Origin: a virus
Lineage: Duplodnaviria > Caudoviricetes
DNA: 64,000 nucleotides
Strand: one strand, 5' to 3'
Virus record (IMG/VR): IMGVR_UViG_3300044557_000281
Coordinates: 1 to 64,000 of that record
The position numbers and the translations under genes are program-made. Shown piece by piece: positions 16,701 through 62,355 of this stretch; position 1 is the first letter of the stretch, and the number at the start of each line of letters is the position of its first letter. The notes beneath the pieces were generated by a model. That model was not told the origin of the DNA and did not search any database. It was given only the letters and a program-made list of their open reading frames with translations.

Positions 16701-18030
16701 AGTAGAAATGCTTAAAGAATAACGGACGTATTAAATTATGATAAACTTGTGGAAATTACTGGCTCATATAAAGCCAGCATGGGTTGCAGAAGTTTTTTAA
16801 ACAAATGGGTCAATGAACATGGAGAAGAAGTTCATGCTGGTCGTATGAATTTGGGTGTTATTTCATTAAACACACCAAGAATTGGGATTGAATCAGAAGG
16901 AAATGTTGAAACTTTCTGGGAACTTTTCAATGAACGATTAGACATTGTTCATGAGGGGCTACAATTCCGAATTAAACGTTGTAAGGAAGCGCAACCTAAG
17001 AATGCACCAATGCTTTATAAACAAGGTGCATTCGGTCATTACCTTACAGATGAGGATACAGTAGACCAACTGTTCGACAATGAACGAGCTACCGTTTCTA
17101 TCGGCTATATTGGCTTATATGAAACAATGACAGCTTTGTTCGGTAATCCTAATTGGGAAACCAATAAAGATATTTATGCTTTTTCTATCGAAGTAGTGAG
17201 ACGTATTGCTGAAAAAGCTGAAAAATGGTCTAAAGAAGAAGAAATCCATTATTCATTGTATGCCACACCAAGTGAATCAATGACTGACCGGTTCTGTAGA
17301 TTAGATACCGCTAAGTTCGGTATTATCAAAGACATTACAGACAAAGGTTTTTATGTGAACTCATTCCATTTAGACACACGAAAAGATTGGTCTCCAATGG
17401 ATAAGATTGATTTTGAATCACCTTACCCTAAATACTCTAATGGTGGGTTTATTCACTATGTAGAAGCAGTTATTCCTAAGCACAATCTGAAAGCTATGGA
17501 ACAACTTTGGGACTACTCGTACGACAAACTAGGATATTTTGGTGTTAATACGCCAATAGATAAATGTTTGAAATGTGGTTTCGAGGGAGACTTTCACGCT
17601 ACCGAGGACGGCTACGAATGTCCAGAGTGTGGGAATAATGACCCAGAAACCTGTGATGTTGTAAAACGACTTTGTGGGTTAACTTAAAGGCTCACATTAA
17701 ACTGTATAAATTGACGGGGACTACCTTAGAGCTTTTACTACTAACTTACTGTGGTGACACAGGCAAGGGCTAGCATAATTAACTAGGTATAGTAAAAAAG
17801 TAAAAGATTGGTAAATCCGCAACGAAACTTCACTACCGTCACATGTTAGTGAAGGACGCTCAACGACTATAATTACGGATGAGGTTAGTCAAACCTCATA
17901 AGGTATAGTCTACTCCCCTAATAAATATCGGGAAACCGAGGGTACTAAGGATTTAGGACAACCACAATTACGCCCCGAAGTTAAGGGAAGACGTAAAGAA
18001 ATAATGAGTCGGGTTAAACACCAACAATAA
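13735..18030 (+). CDS. nrdD: Anaerobic ribonucleotide reductase, 6 exons: 13735-14427, 14716-14881, 15151-15182, 15522-15752, 16725-17679, 17951-18030
   Basis: Exons sum to 2157 nt (718 aa + stop); ATP cone, HFHD, NCC, QFGGCS, EYEVNT..NGQTPF, YPDV, MGCRS, CxxC..CxxC, RLCGYLG. Confidence 0.9.
14428..14715 (+). ncRNA. Group I intron nrdD-N1 (288 nt)
   Basis: P1 UGGU/GCCG; P10 GGGUG/CACUU; terminal G. Confidence 0.85.
14882..15150 (+). ncRNA. Group I intron nrdD-N2 (269 nt)
   Basis: P1 CUUGAGU/GCCCAAG; P7 GACUA/UAGUC; terminal G. Confidence 0.88.
15183..15521 (+). ncRNA. Group I intron nrdD-N3 (~339 nt; 3' end atypical)
   Basis: P1 UAACGGU/GCUGUUA; P7 core; P10 CAAAC/GUUUG places the 3' junction after A15521. 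Confidence 0.75.
15753..16724 (+). ncRNA. Group I intron nrdD-N4 (carries HNH ORF)
   Basis: P1 CCCU/GGGG; P10 GACGU/ACGUU; terminal G at 16724. Confidence 0.88.
15959..16594 (+). CDS. Intron-encoded HNH homing endonuclease
   Basis: SIDRIDGNLGYEKDNVRFI...N; C-terminal NUMOD-like segment. Confidence 0.8.
   Translation: MEKDELLQLAIDGYLKEVETITYIECPVCHAKLTYKWKSSLRNIKSIHGANCSKYYQNQVTKELGEQACKKFSSTYRHAKERCTNKNSKDYYCYKGKWGFTDYVDYHFCCYSSFRDAWLRKIENISIDRIDGNLGYEKDNVRFISMGDNLRNKDRIKPVMALNIETNECLTANSLASLVNSNSTTFKSLSAMHHHLKNGGLYKKKWKVVYQ
17680..17950 (+). ncRNA. Group I intron nrdD-N5 (271 nt), splits the Tyr codon of RLCGYLG
   Basis: P1 UGUGGGU/GCUCACA; terminal G at 17950. Confidence 0.9.
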
Positions 18031-33129: not shown

Positions 33130-33750
33130 TTTTTTTTTTTATTTGATTAAATTTTATTTTGATGGTCATGGGTTGACTCATATTAATTATCCCTTTCTTT
33201 GATTTTCAACATATCGTTTAATTGTTTGACTAGATACGTTCCCAGCTGTTGATACGAAATAACTACGTACCCATAAACTAGGCATTGCCTTTAGTTCTGA
33301 AAATTCATCACGTAACTGCCTTGATGTCCCTCCTTTAATTTTAGCCATTATATCAGCAGGACTATAAGTTGGTAGTGCATTTATGAAAAGATGACAGTGG
33401 TCTTTATCGGTTTCTAATGCCACTATGTTAAAGTCATATTTTTGAGCAATTTGACCTACCAATTCTTTAAACCTAGCATCTAAATGTTTATTAAAAAATA
33501 TTTTACGTCTGTATCTGGGGCAAAACACAAAATGATAGTTGATTAAACTTACGGTTGTTTTAGTTCTTCTGTACTCTTCCATGATTCAATGTTAACATGG
33601 AAATATATGTTAGTCAATAGCACATACATCAATTGTTGAAAAAAGGATAGTGAAAATTTGGCTCTTCGATTTCTCTAAAAGAGAAACCTTGTCACCACTT
33701 CACTACCATCCCACGATTAAAACCGTGGGCTTTCCCGTTCAGGTAATTCT
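33130..33750 (-). mobile_element. Truncated IS605 (left end + tnpA + first codons of tnpB)
   Basis: Left-end hairpin CCCACGGTTTTAATCGTGGG; MSQPMTIKIK follows tnpA and then breaks at poly-A. Confidence 0.75.
33187..33582 (-). CDS. tnpA: IS200/IS605 Y1 transposase
   Basis: YHFVFCPRYR; DHCH (HUH); LWVRSYFVST; IKRYVENQ. Confidence 0.92.
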   Translation of the reverse strand: MEEYRRTKTTVSLINYHFVFCPRYRRKIFFNKHLDARFKELVGQIAQKYDFNIVALETDKDHCHLFINALPTYSPADIMAKIKGGTSRQLRDEFSELKAMPSLWVRSYFVSTAGNVSSQTIKRYVENQRKG

Positions 33751-45188: not shown

Positions 45189-46584
45189 TTGAACTACCCC
45201 ACCTTATTTTCAAAGAAAATTGAAGGTGGGGATTCCTAAGAACTAGACTGACTTAGAGCTATTTTTTATAGCTCCAGAGGTTATCTATATTGATTAGGCT
45301 ATCCCCGTAGTCCCTACGGTTCTTTTTTTTTTATTTTAATTTAAGGCTTGATTCAGAATATTTTGTGCGGCATTGATATCTCTATCATGTGTTGTGTTAC
45401 AAGAAGAGCAAGTCCATGTCCTTACGGACAATGGTTTTTTCCCGTCTATGACTCCACAATTTGAACAGACTTGTGAACTTGGATAGAATCTATCTATCAC
45501 GACAAGCTCTTTATCGTACCAATGACACTTATACTCAAGCATAGAACGAAAAGCACCCCAAGATACATTCACAATAGCTTTTGCTAATTTATGGTTTCTC
45601 ATAAGTCCTTTCACATTTAAGTCTTCAATAGCAATGAAATCATTCTCTTTCACTATTTTTGTGCTTAACTTATGAAGAAAGTCCACTCGTTGATTGCGTA
45701 CCTTTTCATGTAACTTTGCTACTTTTAGTTTTTGTTTTTGATAGTTTTTTGCCTCTGAAAGAGCTTTACCATCTCTTTTTGCTTGTTCGTATCTACGAGA
45801 AAGGATTCTTTGTTCTTTCTTTAACTGTTCTTCGGCTTTTTTGATGAAGTTAGGATTATCTATTTTTTGCATATTCTTGTCTGTCGTAATAGCAAAATGA
45901 GTTAATCCTAAATCAATACCAATACTTTTGTTAGTCTTTTCCATTGGTTGAATGTCTTCTTCTGTTAACAACGAGATAAAGAACTTACCACTAGGATTTC
46001 TTCTTATGGTTGCAGAGATAATTCTCCCCTTAACTTCACGAGAAAGTGCAACACGAACAAGCCCTAATTTTGGAAGTTTGACCTTATTCCCCTTTATGGC
46101 AATGTTGTTGTTAACAGATTTAGTTGTGTATGATTGTCTTGAATCATGTTTTTTCTTGAATCGTGGATAATGATTCACTTTTTTGAAAAACATTTGAAAT
46201 GCCTTATGTAAGTCAAAAACAGCAGTTTGAAGGGCGATTGAATCAACTTCTTTAAGAAAATCCGTCCCTTTTTTCTCGTTTGTTAAGTTCTTACTCAAGG
46301 TTTTCTTACTAGTTTTTACACCCTTTTCATAATCAGCATTCCATTGAGCTAGTGCTTTGTTATAGACAAAACGAGTGCAACCGAAAGTCTTATTGATTAA
46401 GACAGACTGTTCTTTTGTTGGATAGATTCTAAAACTGTAAGCCTTGTATGTCATTGGACTTTCGACCCCTTTCTTTACTTGTATTATACCACAAAAAGAC
46501 TAAAAAGTCAACATTGTAGGGGAATTCATCTCCTCCTTAAAATCATTCTGATTTTTGAAGAAGGAGTCTTCTTCCCTTTTTTAG
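45189..46584 (-). mobile_element. IS1341-type tnpB-only element
   Basis: Target TTTAT at 46589-46585; left-end hairpin; right end ending TCAA; empty site restores terminator + promoter. Confidence 0.85.
45336..46454 (-). CDS. tnpB: RNA-guided nuclease TnpB
   Basis: FRIYPTKEQ; GIDLG; AIEDL; CSNC/CSSC; DRDINAA. Confidence 0.93.
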   Translation of the reverse strand: MTYKAYSFRIYPTKEQSVLINKTFGCTRFVYNKALAQWNADYEKGVKTSKKTLSKNLTNEKKGTDFLKEVDSIALQTAVFDLHKAFQMFFKKVNHYPRFKKKHDSRQSYTTKSVNNNIAIKGNKVKLPKLGLVRVALSREVKGRIISATIRRNPSGKFFISLLTEEDIQPMEKTNKSIGIDLGLTHFAITTDKNMQKIDNPNFIKKAEEQLKKEQRILSRRYEQAKRDGKALSEAKNYQKQKLKVAKLHEKVRNQRVDFLHKLSTKIVKENDFIAIEDLNVKGLMRNHKLAKAIVNVSWGAFRSMLEYKCHWYDKELVVIDRFYPSSQVCSNCGVIDGKKPLSVRTWTCSSCNTTHDRDINAAQNILNQALN

Positions 46585-54720: not shown

Positions 54721-55054
54721 TATAATTTGCCCTCCTTTGGTCTTATTATAACTCTTGTTTTGATTAAAGTAAAGCCATAATCTTATTATTTTCATTTGTT
54801 TCGGTGGACTGTAAGAGATGTCCGTATACTCGTTGTACCATAGAGGTGTCTGTATGTCCTAAACGCTTAGCTACCACCTGTAATGAAATTCCTTTGGGTG
54901 AACTACTCACCACTTAGCTAAACCTAACGGTTTCTTACGCTTGAAGTGGGAGCTTCTTGGGAATAGAGCGTACTTGCAAGCGTATTTCTTTGCTCACAGC
55001 GGTGTCTCTTATTTACCAAGCTATCCCCGTAGTTCCTACGGTTCTTGATTGTAC

Positions 55055-56206
55055 CTAAGCTAATGATTGTATTCTTAGACCTTCGGTCAAGATATTGATA
55101 CTAGCGTTGATGTCTCGGTCGTGTTGAGTATGACAAATAGGGCAAGTCCATTCTCGAATATCAAGAGATTTCTTACCATCTTTGTGTCCACAATTCGAAC
55201 AGATTTGGCTAGATGGAAACCACTTATCTACTTTGATGATTTTCCGACCGTACCAGTCAGCTTTGTATTGTAATTTAGTCACAAAACTAGACCAAGAAAC
55301 ATCCGAAATACTTTTTGCTAGTTTATGATTACGCAACATACCTTTTGTGTTTAAGTCTTCAATACAGATGATATCGTGATTTTTGATAATTTCTGTACTC
55401 AACTTATTCAGAAAATCAGTACGTTGATTCATTACTTTTTCATGCAATCGTGCTACTTTTCGTTTTTGCTTTTGGTAGTTTTTAGCTTCGAATAGATTGA
55501 TACCTTTCTTTTTAGCTAAAAGACCGCGTCTTGACAACTTACATTGTTCACGTTTTAGTTTCTTTTCCATTTTGGATGTGAATTTATTATTATCAATTTT
55601 TTGTCCGTCAGAAAGAATTGCAAAGTCAGTAATACCTAAGTCAATACCAATCGCAGACTTCATCTTAGGTAATTCGTTAACTTCTTCTTTGCATAACAGA
55701 GAAACATAGTATTTACCGCTAGAATGACGTGAGATTGTAGCGGACTTGATAATCCCTTTAGGCTGTCTATGAAGTTTAATTTTGATTAATGATTTTAATT
55801 TAGGAACTTTGATAAGTCTATTATCAATCAAAGAAATTGTTCCATTTTGATTATTCGTTGTATAACTCTGAACAGGATTTTTCTTACTCTTGAAACGAGG
55901 AAATCCAATGGATTTATCCCGAAAGAAATTCTTGTATGCTTTATCTAAATTAAGTTGTGCATTGGCTAAAGCAAGGCTATCAACTTCCTTCAAAAACGGA
56001 AATTCTTTCTTGTATTTAGCAGGTGTCGGAAAAGTCATTGTTTTAGAAGAATCATTTTTTACTTCTTCATACGCCTTTATTCGGTCATTAAGCATTAGAT
56101 TGTAGACCTTACGGATGCAACCAAAAGACTTAGCAAAGAAAATTTCTTGTTCTTCTGTTGGATATAATCTAAACTTATATGCTTTTAGTCGTTCCATAAG
56201 GCTCAC
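55055..56206 (-). CDS. tnpB: RNA-guided nuclease TnpB
   Basis: GIDLG; CIEDL; CSNC/CPIC; DRDINAS. Confidence 0.93.
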   Translation of the reverse strand: MSLMERLKAYKFRLYPTEEQEIFFAKSFGCIRKVYNLMLNDRIKAYEEVKNDSSKTMTFPTPAKYKKEFPFLKEVDSLALANAQLNLDKAYKNFFRDKSIGFPRFKSKKNPVQSYTTNNQNGTISLIDNRLIKVPKLKSLIKIKLHRQPKGIIKSATISRHSSGKYYVSLLCKEEVNELPKMKSAIGIDLGITDFAILSDGQKIDNNKFTSKMEKKLKREQCKLSRRGLLAKKKGINLFEAKNYQKQKRKVARLHEKVMNQRTDFLNKLSTEIIKNHDIICIEDLNTKGMLRNHKLAKSISDVSWSSFVTKLQYKADWYGRKIIKVDKWFPSSQICSNCGHKDGKKSLDIREWTCPICHTQHDRDINASINILTEGLRIQSLA

Positions 56207-56213
56207 CTACTTT

Positions 56214-56618
56214 CTATTTATGATTATTCCCTTGATTCTGAATATATTTCTTTATAACGTCAATCGGTGCACCACCAGTAGTCAAAAGACAGAAGCTTTT
56301 AGACCAGAACATTTCCTTCCAGAGAAATTGTTTTACTCTTGGAAAGTCACGTTTTATCAAACGAGAACTAGCACTTTTATAGGCATTGATGAATTTTGTT
56401 AATTCCGTTTTTGGTTGAGCTTTGAACATGATGTGAATATGGTCTTTATCATGATTCCACTCAACTAAAGTAATGTGATACGATTTTGAAATTCTTTCAA
56501 AAGTATCTTTAGCATAATCAGATATTTCATCATCAATCACTTGTCTACGATACTTCGTTACTAAAACAAGGTGGTAATAAAGAAGGAATACTGAATGATT
56601 ATTTGTGTCTAATTCCAT
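56214..56618 (-). CDS. tnpA: IS200/IS605 Y1 transposase
   Basis: YHLVLVTKYR; DHIH; FWSKSF; YIQNQ. Confidence 0.93.
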   Translation of the reverse strand: MELDTNNHSVFLLYYHLVLVTKYRRQVIDDEISDYAKDTFERISKSYHITLVEWNHDKDHIHIMFKAQPKTELTKFINAYKSASSRLIKRDFPRVKQFLWKEMFWSKSFCLLTTGGAPIDVIKKYIQNQGNNHK

Positions 56619-56962
56619 GTTATATCAACTCATTTCTTATATAGACTGATTATAACATAAGATAAAATAAAAAGTCAATATTGCCTTAACTGTCGGTTTT
56701 CGAGTTACCAACGGTAACCCTTATACTGAACGGCATTCATCACCCACCTATAGAGGATGGGCGACTTCTGCCTAATTCTGTTAAAAGGTAGGAAGCATGT
56801 GTATGGCGTAATTTATGGAACGCTGACACTCCACACGACTAAAGTCGTGGGGTTCTTAGGTAGTACACCCTAACAGGTGCAAATTTACTAAGCTATCCCC
56901 GAAAGTCCTTCGGTTTTAATATTTACGCTTGTCCAAGATAATATAACGGGGTATAGAACCCT

Positions 56963-57100
56963 ATATGTGGGTGCTACTACGATAAAAGATTCGTTTATAT
57001 ATAAGAAAGGGTTTGTAGGGTCTATCTCCACACTAGGTAGAGATAGCTTTTCTACAAACCTCTTAACATTGCCTGTTAAACTTAAGTAGGCAACTAACAT
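56963..57100 (-). pseudogene. nrdI: nrdI 5' fragment
   Basis: AYLSLTGNVKRFVEKL...FIVVAPTY, then fuses to the IS right-end sequence. Confidence 0.75.
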
Positions 57101-57102
57101 AT

Positions 57103-57333
57103 TTAAACTGCCAACTTAGCAATCAAGTCAGGTCTAAACCCTGAGAATGGCTCTCCTACAGGAGGGACTACGAAAGGTGCCTCCATAGCACCTTGGTTGA
57201 CCGCCTCTTCTCTATACTCGTCATTAAGGTCAATATGTCTCTCTTCATACTCTAACCCTAATTTTTCTAACTCTTTCTTAGTAAAGGTACATTGTCCGCA
57301 CCCTGCCTTAGAATATACAATAACTTTACTCAT
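57103..57333 (-). CDS. nrdH: NrdH-like glutaredoxin
   Basis: VYSKAGCGQC; GFRPD. Confidence 0.85.
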   Translation of the reverse strand: MSKVIVYSKAGCGQCTFTKKELEKLGLEYEERHIDLNDEYREEAVNQGAMEAPFVVPPVGEPFSGFRPDLIAKLAV

Positions 57334-57349
57334 TCAAAACCACCCTTAT

Positions 57350-58069
57350 TTAATGTATTACTTTATATAATCTTTCTGTCCTACCTCTATTTGAATTGTT
57401 TATGGATGATACCCCTATAGTCACCTCTTTGCACCAAAACTCCTCAAAAATGTCCTCAGGCATATCATACTCACTAATAAGCACTGTGTTATTCTCTGCC
57501 ATTTGTACACACCACTCATAAAATTCATTATGAGAAAATGTGTCCCGATAACCTAAGGTACTTTTATAGGGAGGGTCACAATAAATAACGGCACCCGATA
57601 CTGTTTTAGGGTCATAGTCCTTATACGAGCCTAACCCAAATTTTATACCCTTTAAGTTAGGAGCTTGGTTAATAATATTACGTATACCTTCACTAGACAT
57701 GTCACGTTTACCCTTTCTGTCTCTAGCAAACCCGCCAAAGTATTTAGCCCCAAATGTAGCACAAAAACCTACTAAGCCAACGTACCAATCAGGGTAGCTA
57801 TTCTTATTATCCCTAACATTGATATACTCGTCCTCAGTTATCGTACTAGGTAAGTTACTAATATTGTCCTCGTCTTGGACATAAACAAGTAGTGCAATAA
57901 GTTTCTCATGAACATCCGTCCCTATCTTAACTGGACTCTTAATCTTATCAATCATATTAGCCCCTCCAACGAAGGGCTCTATGTACATTGTAGTATCCTC
58001 CGTTATATATGATTGAATTATTGGTGCTATTTGTTTACTCAGCCTGTTTTTACTTCCTACGTATTTCAT
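57350..58069 (-). CDS. Dam-family N6-adenine DNA methyltransferase
   Basis: YVGSKNRL; EPFVGGA; YCDPPY; ISEY. Confidence 0.88.
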   Translation of the reverse strand: MKYVGSKNRLSKQIAPIIQSYITEDTTMYIEPFVGGANMIDKIKSPVKIGTDVHEKLIALLVYVQDEDNISNLPSTITEDEYINVRDNKNSYPDWYVGLVGFCATFGAKYFGGFARDRKGKRDMSSEGIRNIINQAPNLKGIKFGLGSYKDYDPKTVSGAVIYCDPPYKSTLGYRDTFSHNEFYEWCVQMAENNTVLISEYDMPEDIFEEFWCKEVTIGVSSINNSNRGRTERLYKVIH

Positions 58070-58079
58070 GTTAAACCTC

Positions 58080-59045
58080 CTAGATAAAGTCGTCTGAAAA
58101 TACTTTGTCCACTAACTCTGTTAAGTAGTTTAAAGTTATTTCACCGTCATTTTCTTCTAACCACTCATTATAAGCGGAAAGGAACCACAGCATGTAGGTT
58201 GTGTCCACTCCGATTAATTGCTCCCTTAAAACGTCAGGGTTTTTCAAATCTAACTCTTGTAGCTGAAATACCATTTTAAGAATCTGACCTGCGTTAACAG
58301 AGAACCCTCTTTGAATAAACTTACGCATACGGAATAGAGAACATAGTGGAAACTTAGAACCTGTGTATACTAGCTCATGAGTCATCATAGACACAAGGGC
58401 TTCCTTAGGTAAACCTAATTCTTTTTCTTTAGGGTCATACCAACAAGTACAATGAACGAAATCAAAGTTCTCATGTATTTGTTCAGGAGAACCAACAAAC
58501 CTCAATATAAGCTGTACTTTACCTGTTAAACTAATTGCGTTGTCTGTAAAATACACTGGTTTGTGTCTAGTTTCCTCAGTGTCCTCCACATTAGTATCTT
58601 CATCAGTTGTAGGTTTCAAGTCCTCATTTTTAAGTAACTCAGTATCTTGTGCCACACCTGACGATTTTATAAATACTTTTATCGGGTCAGTTGCTCCTTT
58701 AAATTTATGTGCGTCTGCCACATCAATATCTACACTCTCGCCTTCTCCTCCATATCCCTCTACGGAGGACGTTGTAATATCAGCATACTGTAGTTTAACT
58801 GATTCTTTGTTTTTCTTTTTATTAAACATTTTAGCATAGTAATCTGCGACTATAATAGCTGAGTACGTGTCCCTAAAGTATATATCTAGGTCGTTCAAAT
58901 CACCTACCATAAGTAAGCTAGCAACAGCACCTCCTGTTACGAATGTGCCGTCTTTAGCTACTTTTCTTACTTCTTCGTCTGTTATAGATTCTAGCCATGC
59001 TTTGTGTTTTCTACCTATAATGCTTTTTACAGTTTTAGTTTTCAT
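58080..59045 (-). CDS. Putative nucleotidyltransferase-fold phage protein
   Basis: GGAVASLL..DLDIYF; FDFVHC; RMRKFIQRGF. Confidence 0.55.
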   Translation of the reverse strand: MKTKTVKSIIGRKHKAWLESITDEEVRKVAKDGTFVTGGAVASLLMVGDLNDLDIYFRDTYSAIIVADYYAKMFNKKKNKESVKLQYADITTSSVEGYGGEGESVDIDVADAHKFKGATDPIKVFIKSSGVAQDTELLKNEDLKPTTDEDTNVEDTEETRHKPVYFTDNAISLTGKVQLILRFVGSPEQIHENFDFVHCTCWYDPKEKELGLPKEALVSMMTHELVYTGSKFPLCSLFRMRKFIQRGFSVNAGQILKMVFQLQELDLKNPDVLREQLIGVDTTYMLWFLSAYNEWLEENDGEITLNYLTELVDKVFSDDFI

Positions 59046-59107
59046 AATTATCTCCTTTTATCATATTTTAATTAATAATACCATAAAAGAGATAATTTGT
59101 CAACTAA

Positions 59108-59187
59108 TTACTTTATATGTTTAACTCTAGCGTCAATCTCTTTTTTACGACCATACGCATTAGGTCTAGCTTGTGGTTGTCCTAAAT
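59108..59187 (-). pseudogene. nrdD: Second nrdD terminal exon (80 nt)
   Basis: (Y)LGQPQARPNAYGRKKEIDARVKHIK*; same phase and length as exon 17951-18030. Confidence 0.85.
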
Positions 59188-60325
59188 CCTTTATACCCTC
59201 GGTTTCCCGATATTTATTAGGGGCATAGACTATACAATCACCTAAACGGTGGCTATATTATAGTCGTTGAACGTTATCTATGGTTAACTTTTTATATTTT
59301 TCATATTTACGGTCTAGATACACAGTAGCATTCCTGTACAGTATAGTTAACGCCATTCTAGCGTTGTTACCTCCTAGAGAGATATAGAAAATACCTTTAG
59401 CCCTGTATAACTGACTTTTAGACTTTGGTGCAATTATCGGCTTAACCACTGACAAGAGTTGTTCAGTACCTAGCATAGAAAACCTAACTCCTGATTTGCT
59501 GTTGTATACTGAACCATCTCCATCGAAGTAACCTCTAATAAAGTGGTTAACTAGATTATCGTCTAGTTTAGGAAACTTTAGTGTTTTACTTTTGTTGGGT
59601 GTTAGCCCCTTGTCTAGTAAGTCATTATACATTTTTCTACTAGTAATGTTTAGTACACAATACTTGTAGTCTTCACCGCTGTATGAGCTACTATTGCTAG
59701 TATACACATGAATAGGGATGTTACTGCTTAAACTTGAGTTTAATTTGTGTAAGTGGTCTATATCCTTTACAGATAACTTCACGCCTATAACTTTCCCGTT
59801 AGTAACGTACCCATCAGCCATGAGAAAACCTAACCAGTAAGCTTTATGCTCTGTGTTTATAACCTCAAAGTAGTCGTCATCCCAAGTATAAACCTTACCA
59901 TTAGACTCTACCCCTCTAATAGAAATGTTATTCTCTAGTAGCACTCTCTTTATTACAGATGTGCTTACTGAAAACTTACTGGCTATTGCTTGTTGACTAC
60001 TTCCTGCATTGTAACTTGTTAGTATAATTTCTATATCTTTATCCGTAAATATTTTCTTTTTTACCACATGTGTACCTCCTATAAGTTAGTTATACTTATA
60101 ATATAGCACAATGGAGTTTAACTGAGCCATAAATCTTCGATGCGGATTTCCCATTTATCCACCCTTAGCACCTTTGTGACAAGGCTTTTATTTCAGCTTA
60201 GGTAATCTAACTAATTTTTTCTGCTTTCGCAACGTTCACGCTCACCGTTTCCAGTCACGTTGTAATTTAGTTAGCTTTACGTATTTCCAGCAATTCAGTT
60301 TCTTCATTGGGCAATATGAGTTTTT
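59188..60325 (-). ncRNA. Group I intron lacking its 5' exon (cognate to the nrdD-N5 site)
   Basis: P7 GACUA/UAGUC; P9 shared with N5; terminal G; IGS GCCCA at 60312-60308. Confidence 0.75.
59258..60067 (-). CDS. Intron-encoded two-motif LAGLIDADG endonuclease with N-terminal HTH
   Basis: AYWLGFLMADGYV; HFIRGYFDGDGSV; LDRKYEKY. Confidence 0.85.
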   Translation of the reverse strand: MVKKKIFTDKDIEIILTSYNAGSSQQAIASKFSVSTSVIKRVLLENNISIRGVESNGKVYTWDDDYFEVINTEHKAYWLGFLMADGYVTNGKVIGVKLSVKDIDHLHKLNSSLSSNIPIHVYTSNSSSYSGEDYKYCVLNITSRKMYNDLLDKGLTPNKSKTLKFPKLDDNLVNHFIRGYFDGDGSVYNSKSGVRFSMLGTEQLLSVVKPIIAPKSKSQLYRAKGIFYISLGGNNARMALTILYRNATVYLDRKYEKYKKLTIDNVQRL

Positions 60326-61300
60326 GTATTGCCTCTAAATGCAAGTTTCCCTACATTCTTACAGTACGTCTACGGGCTATCATCCACACGGTTTTAACCG
60401 TGTGGGTTTTCTCGCCCGCAAATTCTATAAGTGGTCTGGTACACCGCAAGCGGTTAAGACTCTTCTTAAAGTTTCGTTCACTGTAGAATTAACTGGGTTA
60501 CGGTCTGTGGCTACAAAGTAAGGGGCATGTGGTTGAATTGTGTCATAGATGCTTCGCCACTGCTCAAATTTAGCTAAGAGAGTTAACCAATCTTGGTCAA
60601 TTACAATCGTTCGTACACTAGATAAGTTCTTGGTTGGGGCATAATCTTTGGTATATTTATAATCCCAAGTCTTATCAATTCGGATTGTATTATTGTTGAT
60701 TGAATCCTGATTTAGTCCTAGAATTTCAGATAAACGAGCACCAGTCTTTAGGGCTGTGTAAATAGGGAACATATAATACTGGATAGCGGTTTCTCTAGCC
60801 CTCGGTTTCCCTTGGGTATTAAAAGAAACTGGTTCCTTGGTTAAGAATGTGTTTAACCATGCTTCTGTATAAGAGACCACTCTAGTGTACTCATCTACCT
60901 CTAACTATTTCTTGGCATTTCGCTCATTAGACAGTTCTAAGATAGTCATTTGGTCGTCCTTACTGGTTAGAGTGATACGTTTATAAGGGCTTACTGGGAT
61001 ATAATTATCAATTACTGCGTCCGATAAGCATGATTTTATGTAGTTACTTTCTGTTTTTACTGTTCGTTTACGGTGGGTTAGCCCGTAGTCTTGCATATAC
61101 TGCTGAATATCTTTACGAGTAATTTTAGTGAGTTGTAGTTGCCCTAGATTAGATTTAGCTAATCGGTCTCCTGTAATCGTGTATTTTTCTAAGGTTGCTA
61201 ATCCTACATTAGGTTTCTTGTATAAGTTTACCCACTCGTTATACCACTCTGTCATTTTCATGTTATTTATTCTCTCCTTCTTTGTTTTAAGTACAAGCGT

Positions 61301-61329
61301 AGTATAACAGTATTTATTAGTGTTGTCAA
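61301..61329 (-). promoter_or_regulatory. SigA promoter of the recombinase
   Basis: TTGACA-17-TATACT. Confidence 0.75.
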
Positions 61330-61413: not shown

Positions 61414-61878
61414 GTTGTAAAACGAGAGGAACTAACGGGAACTGATGTACAGCAACGTGTGGAAACGACTATTTACGTAAGAAATAGAATCATTGCTAAA
61501 TCAATTGTTAAAAACACTTATATTAATCCGGCAAACGGAAATGAAGATTACCAAGAGGGGAATGCTGTATTCACTACAGCACCCATCGCAATTGCCGTCA
61601 AAGAAGTTTCGATAGCAAAATATGAAAAAACTACATATGGAAACATTGCTATGAGTTTTTATAAAGCTATTCCACCGTCTGGTTTTGTGAATACTCTTGT
61701 TGTTACCACAGATGGAGAAACCAAGGAATCTATGTCGTTTACAATTGATGAGAGTATTAATTATATCCGCTTTAGTCCTGATGCAAATAACGGCGACTAT
61801 AATTTTAAATTCAAACTAGTATCTGGAACTGAAATAGGCGGAAGAACACTAGCTCCAGAGGACATCTTAGCTAGCTAG
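61414..61878 (+). CDS. Silent alternative C-terminal cassette (CBM-like) for gene 61867-62472
   Basis: Open from the repeat: VVKREELTGTDVQQRVETTIYVRNR...KLVSG...APEDILAS; no convincing own start. Confidence 0.75.
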   Translation, partial: VVKREELTGTDVQQRVETTIYVRNRIIAKSIVKNTYINPANGNEDYQEGNAVFTTAPIAIAVKEVSIAKYEKTTYGNIAMSFYKAIPPSGFVNTLVVTTDGETKESMSFTIDESINYIRFSPDANNGDYNFKFKLVSGTEIGGRTLAPEDILAS

Positions 61879-62355
61879 TATACTTTCAGCTGGAATGGTC
61901 CAAATGTATGAATCTTCCGAACTACCTTTTCTTAAAGAAAGCTTGCGTGCCTGACAGATAACTGGTAGATTGCCATCATTTTGGGTAATCATGACCAGAC
62001 CGAGGGTCGTAGAATTTTCGGTTGTCAGTACTGTCGCGGTTGTGATACCCTTGCTTCCATTTTTCACTTCTTGATTGCTTCCCCAATCTGCAACTGTGCC
62101 ATCAGAAAGATGGGACTGTAATTGTACACTTAAAGGCAATGTGTTAGAAGGCGCGGTATTATCAATTTCTATGCTTGCCGTATAATTTTCGTTAGATTGA
62201 ACATTGAGTAGTTCAATCTCCCCATTGTTCCAACCAGTAAATTTATATTCAACCCATTTTGAGGTACTAAGTAAACTAGTTAAATTGCGACTATACACCA
62301 CTACCCCCTCACGCTCAACGGCACCACTAGTAGCTACAACATCTCGTTTTACAAC
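61414..62355. other. Putative invertible segment bounded by GTTGTAAAACGAGA inverted repeats (61414-61427; 62342-62355)
   Basis: Both repeats read GTT GTA AAA CGA GA (VVKR) in frame with two alternative convergent C-terminal domains. Confidence 0.85.

What the first reader, a model, noticed from the sequence alone, without database searches (positions are those of the whole stretch)
54764..61261. Tyrosine recombinase scattered over 6.5 kb and disabled three times
Pieces 61261-60427, 56822-56781 and 54897-54764 join in frame (...VPDHLS/FHKLRHTHASYLLT/KGISLQVVAKRLGH...RVYGH) to 336 codons with all catalytic residues. It carries an amber at codon 119 and two independent IS insertions 42 bp apart. 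Repeated hits suggest selection to freeze the adjacent switch, or neutral decay. Both insertions are of a precisely excising family, so only the amber is hard to revert.
Basis: partly seen in the sequence, partly recalled or inferred. Interest (0 to 1): 0.7.

Follow-up and report, generated by a model that had tools for sequence, protein, structure and literature searches.

The report
Phage recombinase gene broken three times
A DNA-flipping enzyme gene of a large virulent-type phage lies in three pieces, broken by a stop codon, by a jumping gene and by a rearranged self-splicing jumping intron that now carries other phage genes; the gene is almost certainly dead and the switch beside it is probably stuck, which is an instructive but fairly ordinary case of gene decay by mobile DNA.

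Summary
Three minus-strand pieces (61261-60427, 56822-~56780, ~54896-54764) join in frame to a 336-aa tyrosine recombinase. It aligns end to end, with no gap at either join, with ~340-aa homologues (34-45% identity) and keeps R176, K211, H281, R284, H307 and Y317. Codon 119 is TAG where 16 of 19 homologues have Trp.

Insertion 2 is a complete IS200/IS605 element (tnpA and tnpB). Insertion 1 is not a plain IS. Its ends are those of a group A IStron, and an intact copy splits the phage primase gene. Its interior has been replaced by an RNR-type group I intron with a LAGLIDADG endonuclease, an orphan nrdD last exon, a nucleotidyltransferase-like gene, dam, nrdH and a truncated nrdI. The hybrid ribozyme lacks a P3 partner and the stem that brings the distal 3' splice site to the core, so splicing rescue is unlikely.

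The protein has no arm-binding domain. Its gene starts 153 bp from a 914-bp segment flanked by perfect 14-bp inverted repeats lying in frame in a gene. It therefore looks like a Rin-like invertase, now dead.

I favour recent neutral decay in a genome full of mobile elements over selection to freeze the switch. The contig is metagenome-assembled and about 60% complete. The scan had already noted the switch and the cargo IStron on this same contig.

The parts
60427..61261 (-). Recombinase exon 1 (codons 1-278 plus 1 nt). It holds the SAM-like core-binding domain from residue 4 and the first half of the catalytic domain (R176, K211). TAG sits at codon 119 (60907-60905).
   Evidence: Pfam Phage_int_SAM_3 covers residues 4-57. 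The TAG column is Trp in 16 of 19 homologues.
61301..61329 (-). Near-consensus TG-extended sigma-70-like promoter upstream of the recombinase gene.
   Evidence: TTGACA, 17 nt, TATACT, 11 of 12 matches.
56823..60426 (-). Insertion 1: a 3604-nt IStron-ended mosaic with no transposase. It lies after CTTAT and ends in TCAG.
   Evidence: Its 5' 245 nt are 85% and its 3' 109 nt are 94% identical to the ends of the complete IStron in the primase gene. The group A IStron hallmarks are those of PMC4227781.
60273..60426 (-). IStron-derived 5' part of insertion 1: the left-end hairpin and P1 to the P4 5' strand of the group I intron.
   Evidence: Alignment A4. This stretch is nearly identical to the primase IStron up to the conserved P4/P5 stretch. 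After that it follows an RNR-type intron instead.
59188..60272 (-). RNR-type group I intron part (P5 to P9) with a LAGLIDADG/HTH homing endonuclease ORF at 60067-59258.
   Evidence: It is 90% identical to the nrdE intron of Enterococcus phage phiEF17H. Its 3' part is 94% identical to the resident nrdD intron at 17903-17967.
59108..59187 (-). Orphan second copy of the last nrdD exon (the end of the glycyl-radical motif).
   Evidence: 71% amino-acid identity to the resident nrdD last exon at 17950-18021.
56960..59045 (-). Cargo genes: a 321-aa nucleotidyltransferase-like gene (59045-58080) with its own consensus promoter, a D12-class Dam methylase (58069-57350), an NrdH-like glutaredoxin (57333-57103), and an NrdI fragment of the first ~46 residues (57100-~56960).
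   Evidence: All are single copy in the 90-kb contig.
56823..56945 (-). The last ~14 codons of an IStron tnpB plus the right end (hairpin, ending TCAG).
   Evidence: Alignment A5.
56779..56822 (-). Recombinase exon 2 (42-44 nt) encoding S-FHKLRHTHASYLLT, which holds catalytic H281 and R284.
54896..56778 (-). Insertion 2: a complete IS200/IS605 element of 1883 nt. tnpA is at 56618-56214, tnpB at 56206-55055, and an omega-RNA-like right end at 55047-54916. Boundaries are good to +/-2 nt.
   Evidence: Y1_Tnp 2e-42; OrfB_IS605 9e-26; Ref70.
54764..54895 (-). Recombinase exon 3, from KGISLQVVAKRLGH through VYGH to the stop, with H307 and the nucleophile Y317.
61414..62355 (.). Adjacent inversion switch. 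Perfect 14-bp inverted repeats lie at 61414-61427 and 62342-62355, with 914 bp between them. The expressed gene is 62472-61867 (-). The silent alternative C-terminal cassette is 61428-61878 (+).
   Evidence: Both repeats lie in frame and encode VVKR. These are the only two perfect copies in the window.

Best explanation
This is a recently inactivated gene for a tyrosine recombinase that has no arm-binding domain. The enzyme most likely served as the invertase of the two-cassette switch that starts 153 bp upstream of the gene.

The likely history is as follows. A group A IStron (a group I intron fused to IS200/IS605 genes) inserted after CTTAT, just before the HxxR motif. At that stage it was probably harmless, because such elements splice out of the mRNA. 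Its interior was later replaced. One crossover lay in the conserved P4/P5 core it shares with an RNR-type intron that carries a homing endonuclease. The other was an illegitimate joint between nrdI and the 3' end of tnpB. This brought in an orphan nrdD exon and four phage genes and wrecked the ribozyme.

Independently, a complete IS200/IS605 element inserted 42-44 bp downstream, and codon 119 changed from TGG to TAG. The order of these events is unknown.

Shown: the anatomy, the homologies, and the loss of the P3 and inverted-repeat (IR) stem partners. Inferred: the enzyme's invertase role, the order of events, and that the product is non-functional. The switch is therefore probably locked in its present orientation, unless an enzyme encoded in the unseen ~40% of the genome acts on it.
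For: - **Gene and lesions.** The pieces join in frame and align gap-free with homologues. All six catalytic residues are present. TAG sits in a column that is Trp in 16 of 19 homologues. No suppressor tRNA is found.
- **Insertion 2.** It has full-length tnpA and tnpB, and its ends are confirmed by the EFP01 and EF1 copies.
- **Insertion 1, origin.** Its ends match a complete IStron in the primase gene. That copy scores 65 bits against Rfam Intron_gpI. The chimeric junction is mapped in alignment A4. An orphan nrdD exon lies inside it.
- **Insertion 1, ribozyme.** P3 has a 7-bp partner in the intact IStron but at most 4 bp in the chimera, and P4 drops from 6 to 4 contiguous bp. The 5' arm of the IR stem is absent.
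- **Domain layout and switch.** The core-binding domain starts at residue 4. The 14-bp inverted repeats lie in frame.
- **No other recombinase.** No other tyrosine or serine recombinase is present in the 90 kb.
- **Little decay.** The joined protein keeps 58 of 61 highly conserved columns, which is within the range of intact homologues. The silent cassette is still open for 157 codons.
Against: - No inversion has been observed and no flipped allele was found.
- The nearest relatives (32-45% identity) sit in prophage early operons next to a small N6-methylase gene, not next to switches. The invertase role therefore rests on adjacency and domain layout alone.
- The contig is a metagenome assembly, about 60% complete. 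The amber could be an error or a minority variant, and the mosaic joints have no read support here.
- Ribozyme failure is inferred from lost pairings, not measured.
Confidence: 0.78

Rival explanations
1. Selection to freeze the switch. Locking the receptor-binding-like gene in one orientation was advantageous, so independent knock-outs of the invertase were each favoured.
For: There are three lesions in a 1-kb gene. Two of the roughly seven IS605-type elements or remnants seen in 90 kb fall within 44 bp of each other in this gene.
Against: One knock-out is enough, so further hits add nothing that selection can see. An intact IStron would not have knocked the gene out at all (PMC4227781; 10.1101/2023.11.20.567912). 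Non-splicing elements can survive only in dispensable DNA, so the effective target is small and clustering is expected. The silent cassette and the gene show almost no decay, which argues against a long-frozen state.
Confidence: 0.08
2. The gene is a relic integrase, or another kind of recombinase acquired from a temperate phage. It has nothing to do with the neighbouring inverted repeats.
For: The closest relatives are prophage-borne, and phage-database hits at 27-30% identity are annotated as integrases. A quick tree places the protein at the base of a prophage early-operon clade (SH-aLRT 87).
Against: There is no arm-binding domain. In the Amphibacillus prophage the homologue is a second recombinase, separate from the 400-aa arm-type integrase at the prophage edge. 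The host phage resembles strictly virulent Herelleviridae. The gene starts 153 bp from an in-frame pair of 14-bp inverted repeats that is expected about 0.02 times by chance.
Confidence: 0.15
3. Insertion 1 still works as an intron or as a mobilisable cassette, so the gene is blocked only by the IS and the amber, and the block is conditional.
For: The 5' splice-site context (U before the intron), the left-end hairpin, and the right end with TCAG are all kept. A cognate TnpA and TnpB are encoded by the primase IStron.
Against: The P3 partner is lost, P4 is weakened, and the IR-stem arm is missing. A nearer nrdD-type 3' splice site would give a truncated fusion lacking HxxR, H and Y. Rfam sees no intact intron there.
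Confidence: 0.1
4. Assembly artefact. The mosaic or the amber arose when a metagenome assembler crossed repeats or mixed strains.
For: The record is an IMG/VR metagenome contig. Insertion 1 and the primase IStron share a stretch of about 100 identical nt.
Against: Two separate false joins would have to restore exons 1 and 2 in order, in orientation and in frame. The first ~60 nt and the last 109 nt of insertion 1 differ from the primase copy. No repeat is seen at the nrdI/tnpB joint.
Confidence: 0.07

Closest known systems
Rin shufflon invertase of Bifidobacterium prophages (Mavrich et al. 2018, PMC6109161)
   Same: Both are phage-encoded tyrosine recombinases with no arm-binding domain. Each lies directly beside cassettes that encode alternative C-terminal ends of a virion-type protein. 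Short crossover repeats sit inside the coding sequence (11 bp there, 14 bp here). The cassettes are very dissimilar to each other. One natural rin allele also carries a stop codon.
   Different: Here there are two cassettes and one inversion, not a multi-cassette shufflon. The host is a Herelleviridae-like, virulent-type phage of Bacillota, not a temperate actinobacterial siphophage. No inversion has been observed. Sequence kinship to Rin was not tested. The gene is broken three times.
Rci/shufflon of IncI plasmids such as R64 (own knowledge)
   Same: A tyrosine recombinase swaps C-terminal segments of an adhesin at short repeats inside the gene.
   Different: That system is plasmid-borne, has many segments and acts on pilus tip protein PilV. 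No specific sequence similarity was shown here (one search gave only weak generic Xer/integron hits, and only for the intact homologues).
Group A IStrons (CdISt1 and Enterococcus IStrons; Tourasse et al. 2014, PMC4227781; Zedaveinyte et al., 10.1101/2023.11.20.567912)
   Same: Insertion 1 lies after a T-rich pentanucleotide and ends in TCAG. It has a 5' group I intron with the IS left-end hairpin in P1/P2 and an IS605-type right end. A complete sister copy (intron, tnpA, tnpB) interrupts the essential primase gene.
   Different: tnpA and nearly all of tnpB are gone. The ribozyme is a hybrid with an endonuclease-bearing RNR intron. The element encloses about 2.3 kb of unrelated phage genes. The degenerate IStrons described so far have lost ORFs; they have not gained cargo.
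IS200/IS605 insertion sequences with TnpB (e.g. the copy in Enterococcus phage EFP01; Karvelis et al. 2021, PMC8612924)
   Same: Insertion 2 has a Y1 tnpA, tnpB and subterminal structures, with no target duplication. It is 88% identical to the EFP01 copy. A miniature left-end-plus-right-end derivative exists in phages EF1 and EF5.
   Different: Nothing unusual apart from its position inside a recombinase catalytic motif.
Unnamed clade of ~340-aa recombinases in prophage early operons, paired with a small N6-methylase gene
   Same: These are the best sequence relatives (32-45% identity). They share the length and the arm-less layout.
   Different: They have a different neighbourhood (methylase next door in 10 of 11 loci) and no inverted-repeat-flanked segment was seen. 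Their function is unknown.

Membership tests
Tyrosine recombinase superfamily (Pfam PF00589 with SAM-like core-binding domain) | Catalytic R...K...HxxR...H/W...Y in order within one catalytic domain | tested here: met
   R176, K211, H281, R284, H307 and Y317 are present in the joined reading and aligned with 19 homologues. Each fragment alone scores below the Pfam cut-off (18.5 and 19.3 bits against 27.1).
Tyrosine recombinase superfamily (Pfam PF00589 with SAM-like core-binding domain) | N-terminal SAM-like core-binding domain | tested here: met
   PF14659 at residues 4-57 (29.3 bits, cut-off 22.6) and PF13102 at residues 5-95.
Tyrosine recombinase superfamily (Pfam PF00589 with SAM-like core-binding domain) | Uninterrupted open reading frame (a working gene) | tested here: not met
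   TAG at codon 119, a 3604-nt insertion and an 1883-nt insertion.
Phage/plasmid tyrosine DNA invertase (Rin- or Rci-like) | No arm-type DNA-binding domain | tested here: met
   The core-binding domain begins at residue 4. By contrast it begins at residue 79 in the arm-type integrase of the Amphibacillus prophage.
Phage/plasmid tyrosine DNA invertase (Rin- or Rci-like) | Gene adjacent to a segment bounded by short inverted crossover sites inside a coding sequence, with alternative C-terminal cassettes | tested here: met
   Perfect 14-bp inverted repeats lie 914 bp apart, both in frame, and the gene starts 153 bp away. They are the only two perfect copies in the window. The cassettes are open but dissimilar.
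Phage/plasmid tyrosine DNA invertase (Rin- or Rci-like) | Both orientations of the segment observed, or inversion shown in an assay | not testable with these tools
   No reads are available, and no related contig carries the locus.
Phage/plasmid tyrosine DNA invertase (Rin- or Rci-like) | Sequence kinship to Rin or Rci | not tested
NCBIfam gave only sub-threshold Xer and integron-integrase hits for the intact homologues.
Temperate-phage integrase (att-site integration) | Arm-binding N-terminal domain, and a position at the prophage edge with lysogeny genes | tested here: not met
   The protein has no arm domain. It lies between DNA-metabolism genes and the switch in a Herelleviridae-like genome. 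Only about 60% of the genome was seen.
Group A IStron (insertion 1) | [quoted passage not shown] | tested here: met
   Insertion 1 lies after CTTAT, and the primase copy after TTTAT. Both end in GTGTCAG. CTTAT is a one-base variant of the published motifs.
Group A IStron (insertion 1) | Complete group I ribozyme (P1-P9), with an inverted-repeat (IR) stem that brings the distal 3' splice site to the core | tested here: not met
   There is no Rfam hit, the P3 partner is lost and P4 is weakened, and the IR-stem arm is absent. The primase copy meets this feature.
Group A IStron (insertion 1) | IS200/IS605 tnpA and/or tnpB inside the element | tested here: not met
   Only the last ~14 codons of tnpB remain.
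IS200/IS605 (insertion 2) | Y1 HUH transposase, TnpB, conserved ends without target duplication | tested here: met
   Y1_Tnp matches 1-121 of 121 positions (2e-42), and the OrfB_IS605, TNB and HTH domains are present. The ends are shared with the EFP01 and EF1 copies, and the flanks join in frame with no duplicated bases.

The most novel reading that the evidence does not exclude
The invertase gene is not simply dead but is held under a multi-part, partly reversible lock by RNA-guided selfish elements. The two IS605-type elements home into the catalytic-motif region of intact alleles during co-infection, with TnpB cutting the empty sites, and so spread a 'locked host-range switch' state through the phage population. 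Scarless excision of both elements, with reversion or read-through of the amber, would regenerate active invertase in rare genomes.
Probability: 0.06. Interest if true: 0.7.

Novelty: new member of a known kind. Interest (0 to 1): 0.42.

Why it matters
The locus shows in one place how three classes of selfish DNA interact in a virulent-type phage: homing-endonuclease introns, IStrons and plain IS605 elements. A 'harmless' splicing transposon can become a gene-killing, cargo-carrying block through recombination with an unrelated intron. If the enzyme is shown to flip the neighbouring segment, it would also be one of very few phage tyrosine invertases known after Rin, and the first in a Herelleviridae-like phage. 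For phage host-range work it is a warning that a switch seen in the sequence may be locked. As a finding about the recombinase alone, it is gene decay by known mechanisms.

Tried and rejected
- **Stop-codon recoding or suppression of TAG.** Rejected. No suppressor tRNA is present, long ORFs elsewhere are intact under table 11, and the codon aligns with Trp.
- **Both insertions as introns.** Rejected for insertion 2. Only about 160 nt precede its tnpA, and the only Rfam hit is a weak one to an Enterococcus sRNA on its right end.
- **Rfam on insertion 1.** No hit. This is uninformative on its own, because the endonuclease ORF splits the core, so I checked the pairings by script.
- **Search for an intact or near allele.** I searched 5.8 billion proteins, IMG/VR, GTDB genomes, JGI metagenomes and INPHARED. 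Nothing was above 38% identity in any of these searches (45% in the trimmed tree alignment).
- **Search for the donor of the cargo.** No close relative of the 321-aa gene was found.
- **Inverted repeats near the closest homologues.** None convincing.
- **Homologues of the methylase partner in this phage.** None.
- **Structure prediction of the joined protein.** Not attempted, because the joined sequence has no single reference.

Full report
**Setting.** The window is the first 64 kb of a single 90,155-bp IMG/VR virus contig. The record is classed as linear and CheckV puts it at about 60% complete. GC content is 36.8%. Its SbcD-like exonuclease is 44% identical to those of Enterococcus Brockvirinae, and its mobile elements are 88-92% identical to copies in Enterococcus phages. 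It is therefore a distant Herelleviridae-like, virulent-type phage, probably of Enterococcus or a neighbouring genus. No close DNA relative was found in the phage collection.

**Observation.** On the minus strand, 61261-60427 translates to 278 residues with one TAG at codon 119.
- Joined, the three pieces give 1011 nt, or 336 codons plus a stop.
- The nearest proteins among 5.8 billion are ~340-aa tyrosine recombinases at 34-38% identity over 99% of exon 1.
- In a MAFFT alignment with 19 of them the joined protein runs end to end, with no gap at either join.
- Exons 2+3 (58 residues) are 53-76% identical to the homologues.
- The catalytic residues are split across the pieces: R176 and K211 in exon 1, H281 and R284 in exon 2, H307 and Y317 in exon 3.
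- The TAG column is Trp in 16 of 19 homologues, so the lesion is most simply a TGG-to-TAG transition.
- No suppressor tRNA is encoded.

**Insertion 2.** Between exon 2 and exon 3 lies an 1883-nt IS200/IS605 element.
- It has a full-length Y1 transposase (2e-42) and a full-length TnpB.
- It has its own consensus promoter.
- Its right end gives a weak hit to an Enterococcus sRNA model. I read this as the omega-RNA region.
- Its right end stops exactly where the 88%-identical copy in phage EFP01 stops.
- A miniature left-end-plus-right-end derivative in phage EF1 fixes the left end.
- The boundaries are ambiguous by 2 nt, with no effect on the protein.
- There is room for only about 160 nt before tnpA, so this element has no intron.

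**Insertion 1 is not an IS.** It is 3604 nt long.
- Its first 245 nt are 85% and its last 109 nt are 94% identical to the two ends of an element at contig positions 78863-81013.
- That element splits the DNA primase gene. It holds a group I intron (Rfam Intron_gpI, 65 bits, E = 1e-15), tnpA (133 aa) and tnpB (372 aa). It is therefore a complete IStron.
- Both copies lie after a T-rich pentanucleotide (TTTAT in the primase gene, CTTAT here) and end in TCAG. These are the hallmarks of group A IStrons, a group that includes Enterococcus elements (PMC4227781).
- An intact IStron splices out of the mRNA at exactly the joint that DNA excision would leave (10.1101/2023.11.20.567912). The original insertion into the recombinase gene need not have been harmful.

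**What happened to insertion 1.**
- Alignment A4 shows that it follows the IStron only up to the conserved P4/P5 stretch. From there it follows an RNR-type intron that is 90% identical to the nrdE intron of Enterococcus phage phiEF17H.
- That part holds a LAGLIDADG/HTH endonuclease ORF. Its 3' part is 94% identical to the last intron of the resident nrdD gene.
- It is followed by a second, orphan copy of the last nrdD exon, 71% identical to the resident one.
- Next come a nucleotidyltransferase-like gene with its own consensus promoter, a Dam methylase, an NrdH-like glutaredoxin and the first ~46 residues of NrdI.
- NrdI is joined to the last ~14 codons of the IStron tnpB and the right end.
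- All of these genes are single copy in the contig.
- The simplest origin is replacement of the IStron interior by a stretch of a phage nrdD region. One crossover lay in the shared intron core and the other joint was illegitimate.
- I could not find the donor.

**Can insertion 1 still splice?** Probably not.
- In the primase IStron the P3 5' strand has a 7-bp partner. In the chimera the best match in the equivalent place is 4 bp, which is chance level.
- P4 falls from 6 to 4 contiguous pairs.
- In the primase copy an 11-nt arm pairs with the 3' terminus and would bring the distal splice site to the core. That arm is absent from insertion 1.
- A nearer nrdD-type 3' splice site is present. Using it would fuse exon 1 in frame to the orphan nrdD exon and give a protein without HxxR, H and Y (read).
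- These are sequence inferences, not measurements.

**What the enzyme was for.**
- The core-binding domain starts at residue 4, so the protein has no arm-binding domain.
- The gene has a near-consensus promoter.
- It starts 153 bp from the left copy of a perfect 14-bp inverted repeat. The right copy lies 914 bp further on, inside the gene at 62472-61867.
- Both copies are in frame and encode the same four residues.
- Beyond the left copy an open frame of about 150 codons runs the other way and ends in the same ILAS motif.
- The two cassettes are otherwise unrelated in sequence.
- The 14-mer has no other perfect copy in the window.
- This is the layout of the Rin shufflon of Bifidobacterium prophages, reported as the first phage tyrosine invertase (PMC6109161).
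- No other tyrosine or serine recombinase is present in the 90 kb.

**Evidence against the invertase reading.**
- The closest relatives sit in prophage early operons next to a small N6-methylase gene in 10 of 11 loci.
- They have no convincing inverted repeats nearby.
- This phage has no such methylase.
- A quick tree puts the protein at the base of that clade with modest support (SH-aLRT 87; the careful search did not finish).
- NCBIfam gives no named family.
- The invertase role is therefore a well-motivated inference, not a demonstrated membership.

**Decay or selection?**
- The joined protein keeps 58 of 61 columns that are at least 90% conserved among homologues. That is within the range of the intact proteins. 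The silent cassette is still open. Inactivation therefore looks recent.
- The contig carries many group I introns (Rfam hits; earlier scan notes report eleven in terL and nrdD).
- It also carries about seven IS605-type elements or remnants.
- The splicing IStron sits in the essential primase gene, while the non-splicing IS sits in this gene. That is what purifying selection would leave if the recombinase were dispensable.
- TnpB-guided cutting of empty sites gives a selfish route for such insertions to spread and persist.
- One knock-out is enough to freeze a switch, so repeated hits are not evidence of selection.
- I favour recent neutral or selfish-element-driven decay.

**Caveats.**
- The contig is metagenome-assembled, so the amber and the mosaic joints need read support.
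- About 40% of the genome is unseen.
- No close allele, intact or flipped, was found in any collection searched.
- Earlier notes of this scan on the same contig had independently described the switch, the cargo-carrying IStron and the chimeric intron. My results agree with them. The lead to the Rin paper came from one of those notes, and I checked it by reading the paper.

Noticed in passing
L002:2865-5003 (contig 78864-81002), minus strand: The DNA primase gene is split by a complete group A IStron: a group I intron (Rfam 65 bits), tnpA (133 aa) and tnpB (372 aa). It lies after TTTAT and ends in TCAG. Because the primase is essential, this copy presumably splices.
   Followed up: partly
window:10293-10429 and window:45187-45323: These are 137-nt perfect inverted copies of an IS605-type right-end/omega-RNA-like sequence. 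One abuts a solo tnpB (45336-46454). The other stands alone beside the tRNA cluster. They could mediate a 35-kb inversion or mark a recent copy event.
   Followed up: no
window:33187-33737: A tnpA-only element (131 aa, 71% DNA identity to the IStron tnpA) with an IStron-like left-end hairpin at 33703-33737. It may be another IStron remnant.
   Followed up: no
window:21775-23031: A distant TnpB-like ORF (418 aa, 24% identity to the insertion-2 TnpB) on the plus strand.
   Followed up: no
L173:300-770 (Enterococcus phage EF1, MF001358.1): A miniature, ORF-less derivative of about 470 nt (left end plus right end) of the same IS as insertion 2. It lies between two phage genes and is also present in phage EF5.
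   Followed up: partly
L003, L011, L012, L013, L091-L097: The closest recombinase clade (~340 aa without an arm-binding domain, or ~460 aa with an N-terminal HTH extension) is paired with a 200-270-aa N6_Mtase ORF in prophage early operons in 10 of 11 loci. In the Amphibacillus prophage it is separate from the true integrase. This recombinase-methylase pair has no known function.
   Followed up: partly
window:25-1780 and the last ~150 nt of the contig: An array of 27-39-nt repeats built on TTTGTCATGAATA, with palindromic stretches, at the start of the contig and again at its far end. It may be an origin, a set of iterons or a terminal-repeat region.
   Followed up: no
window:59075-59103: A consensus TG-extended promoter lies inside insertion 1, ahead of the nucleotidyltransferase-like gene, dam and nrdH. 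The captured genes are therefore probably expressed independently of the broken recombinase gene.
   Followed up: no
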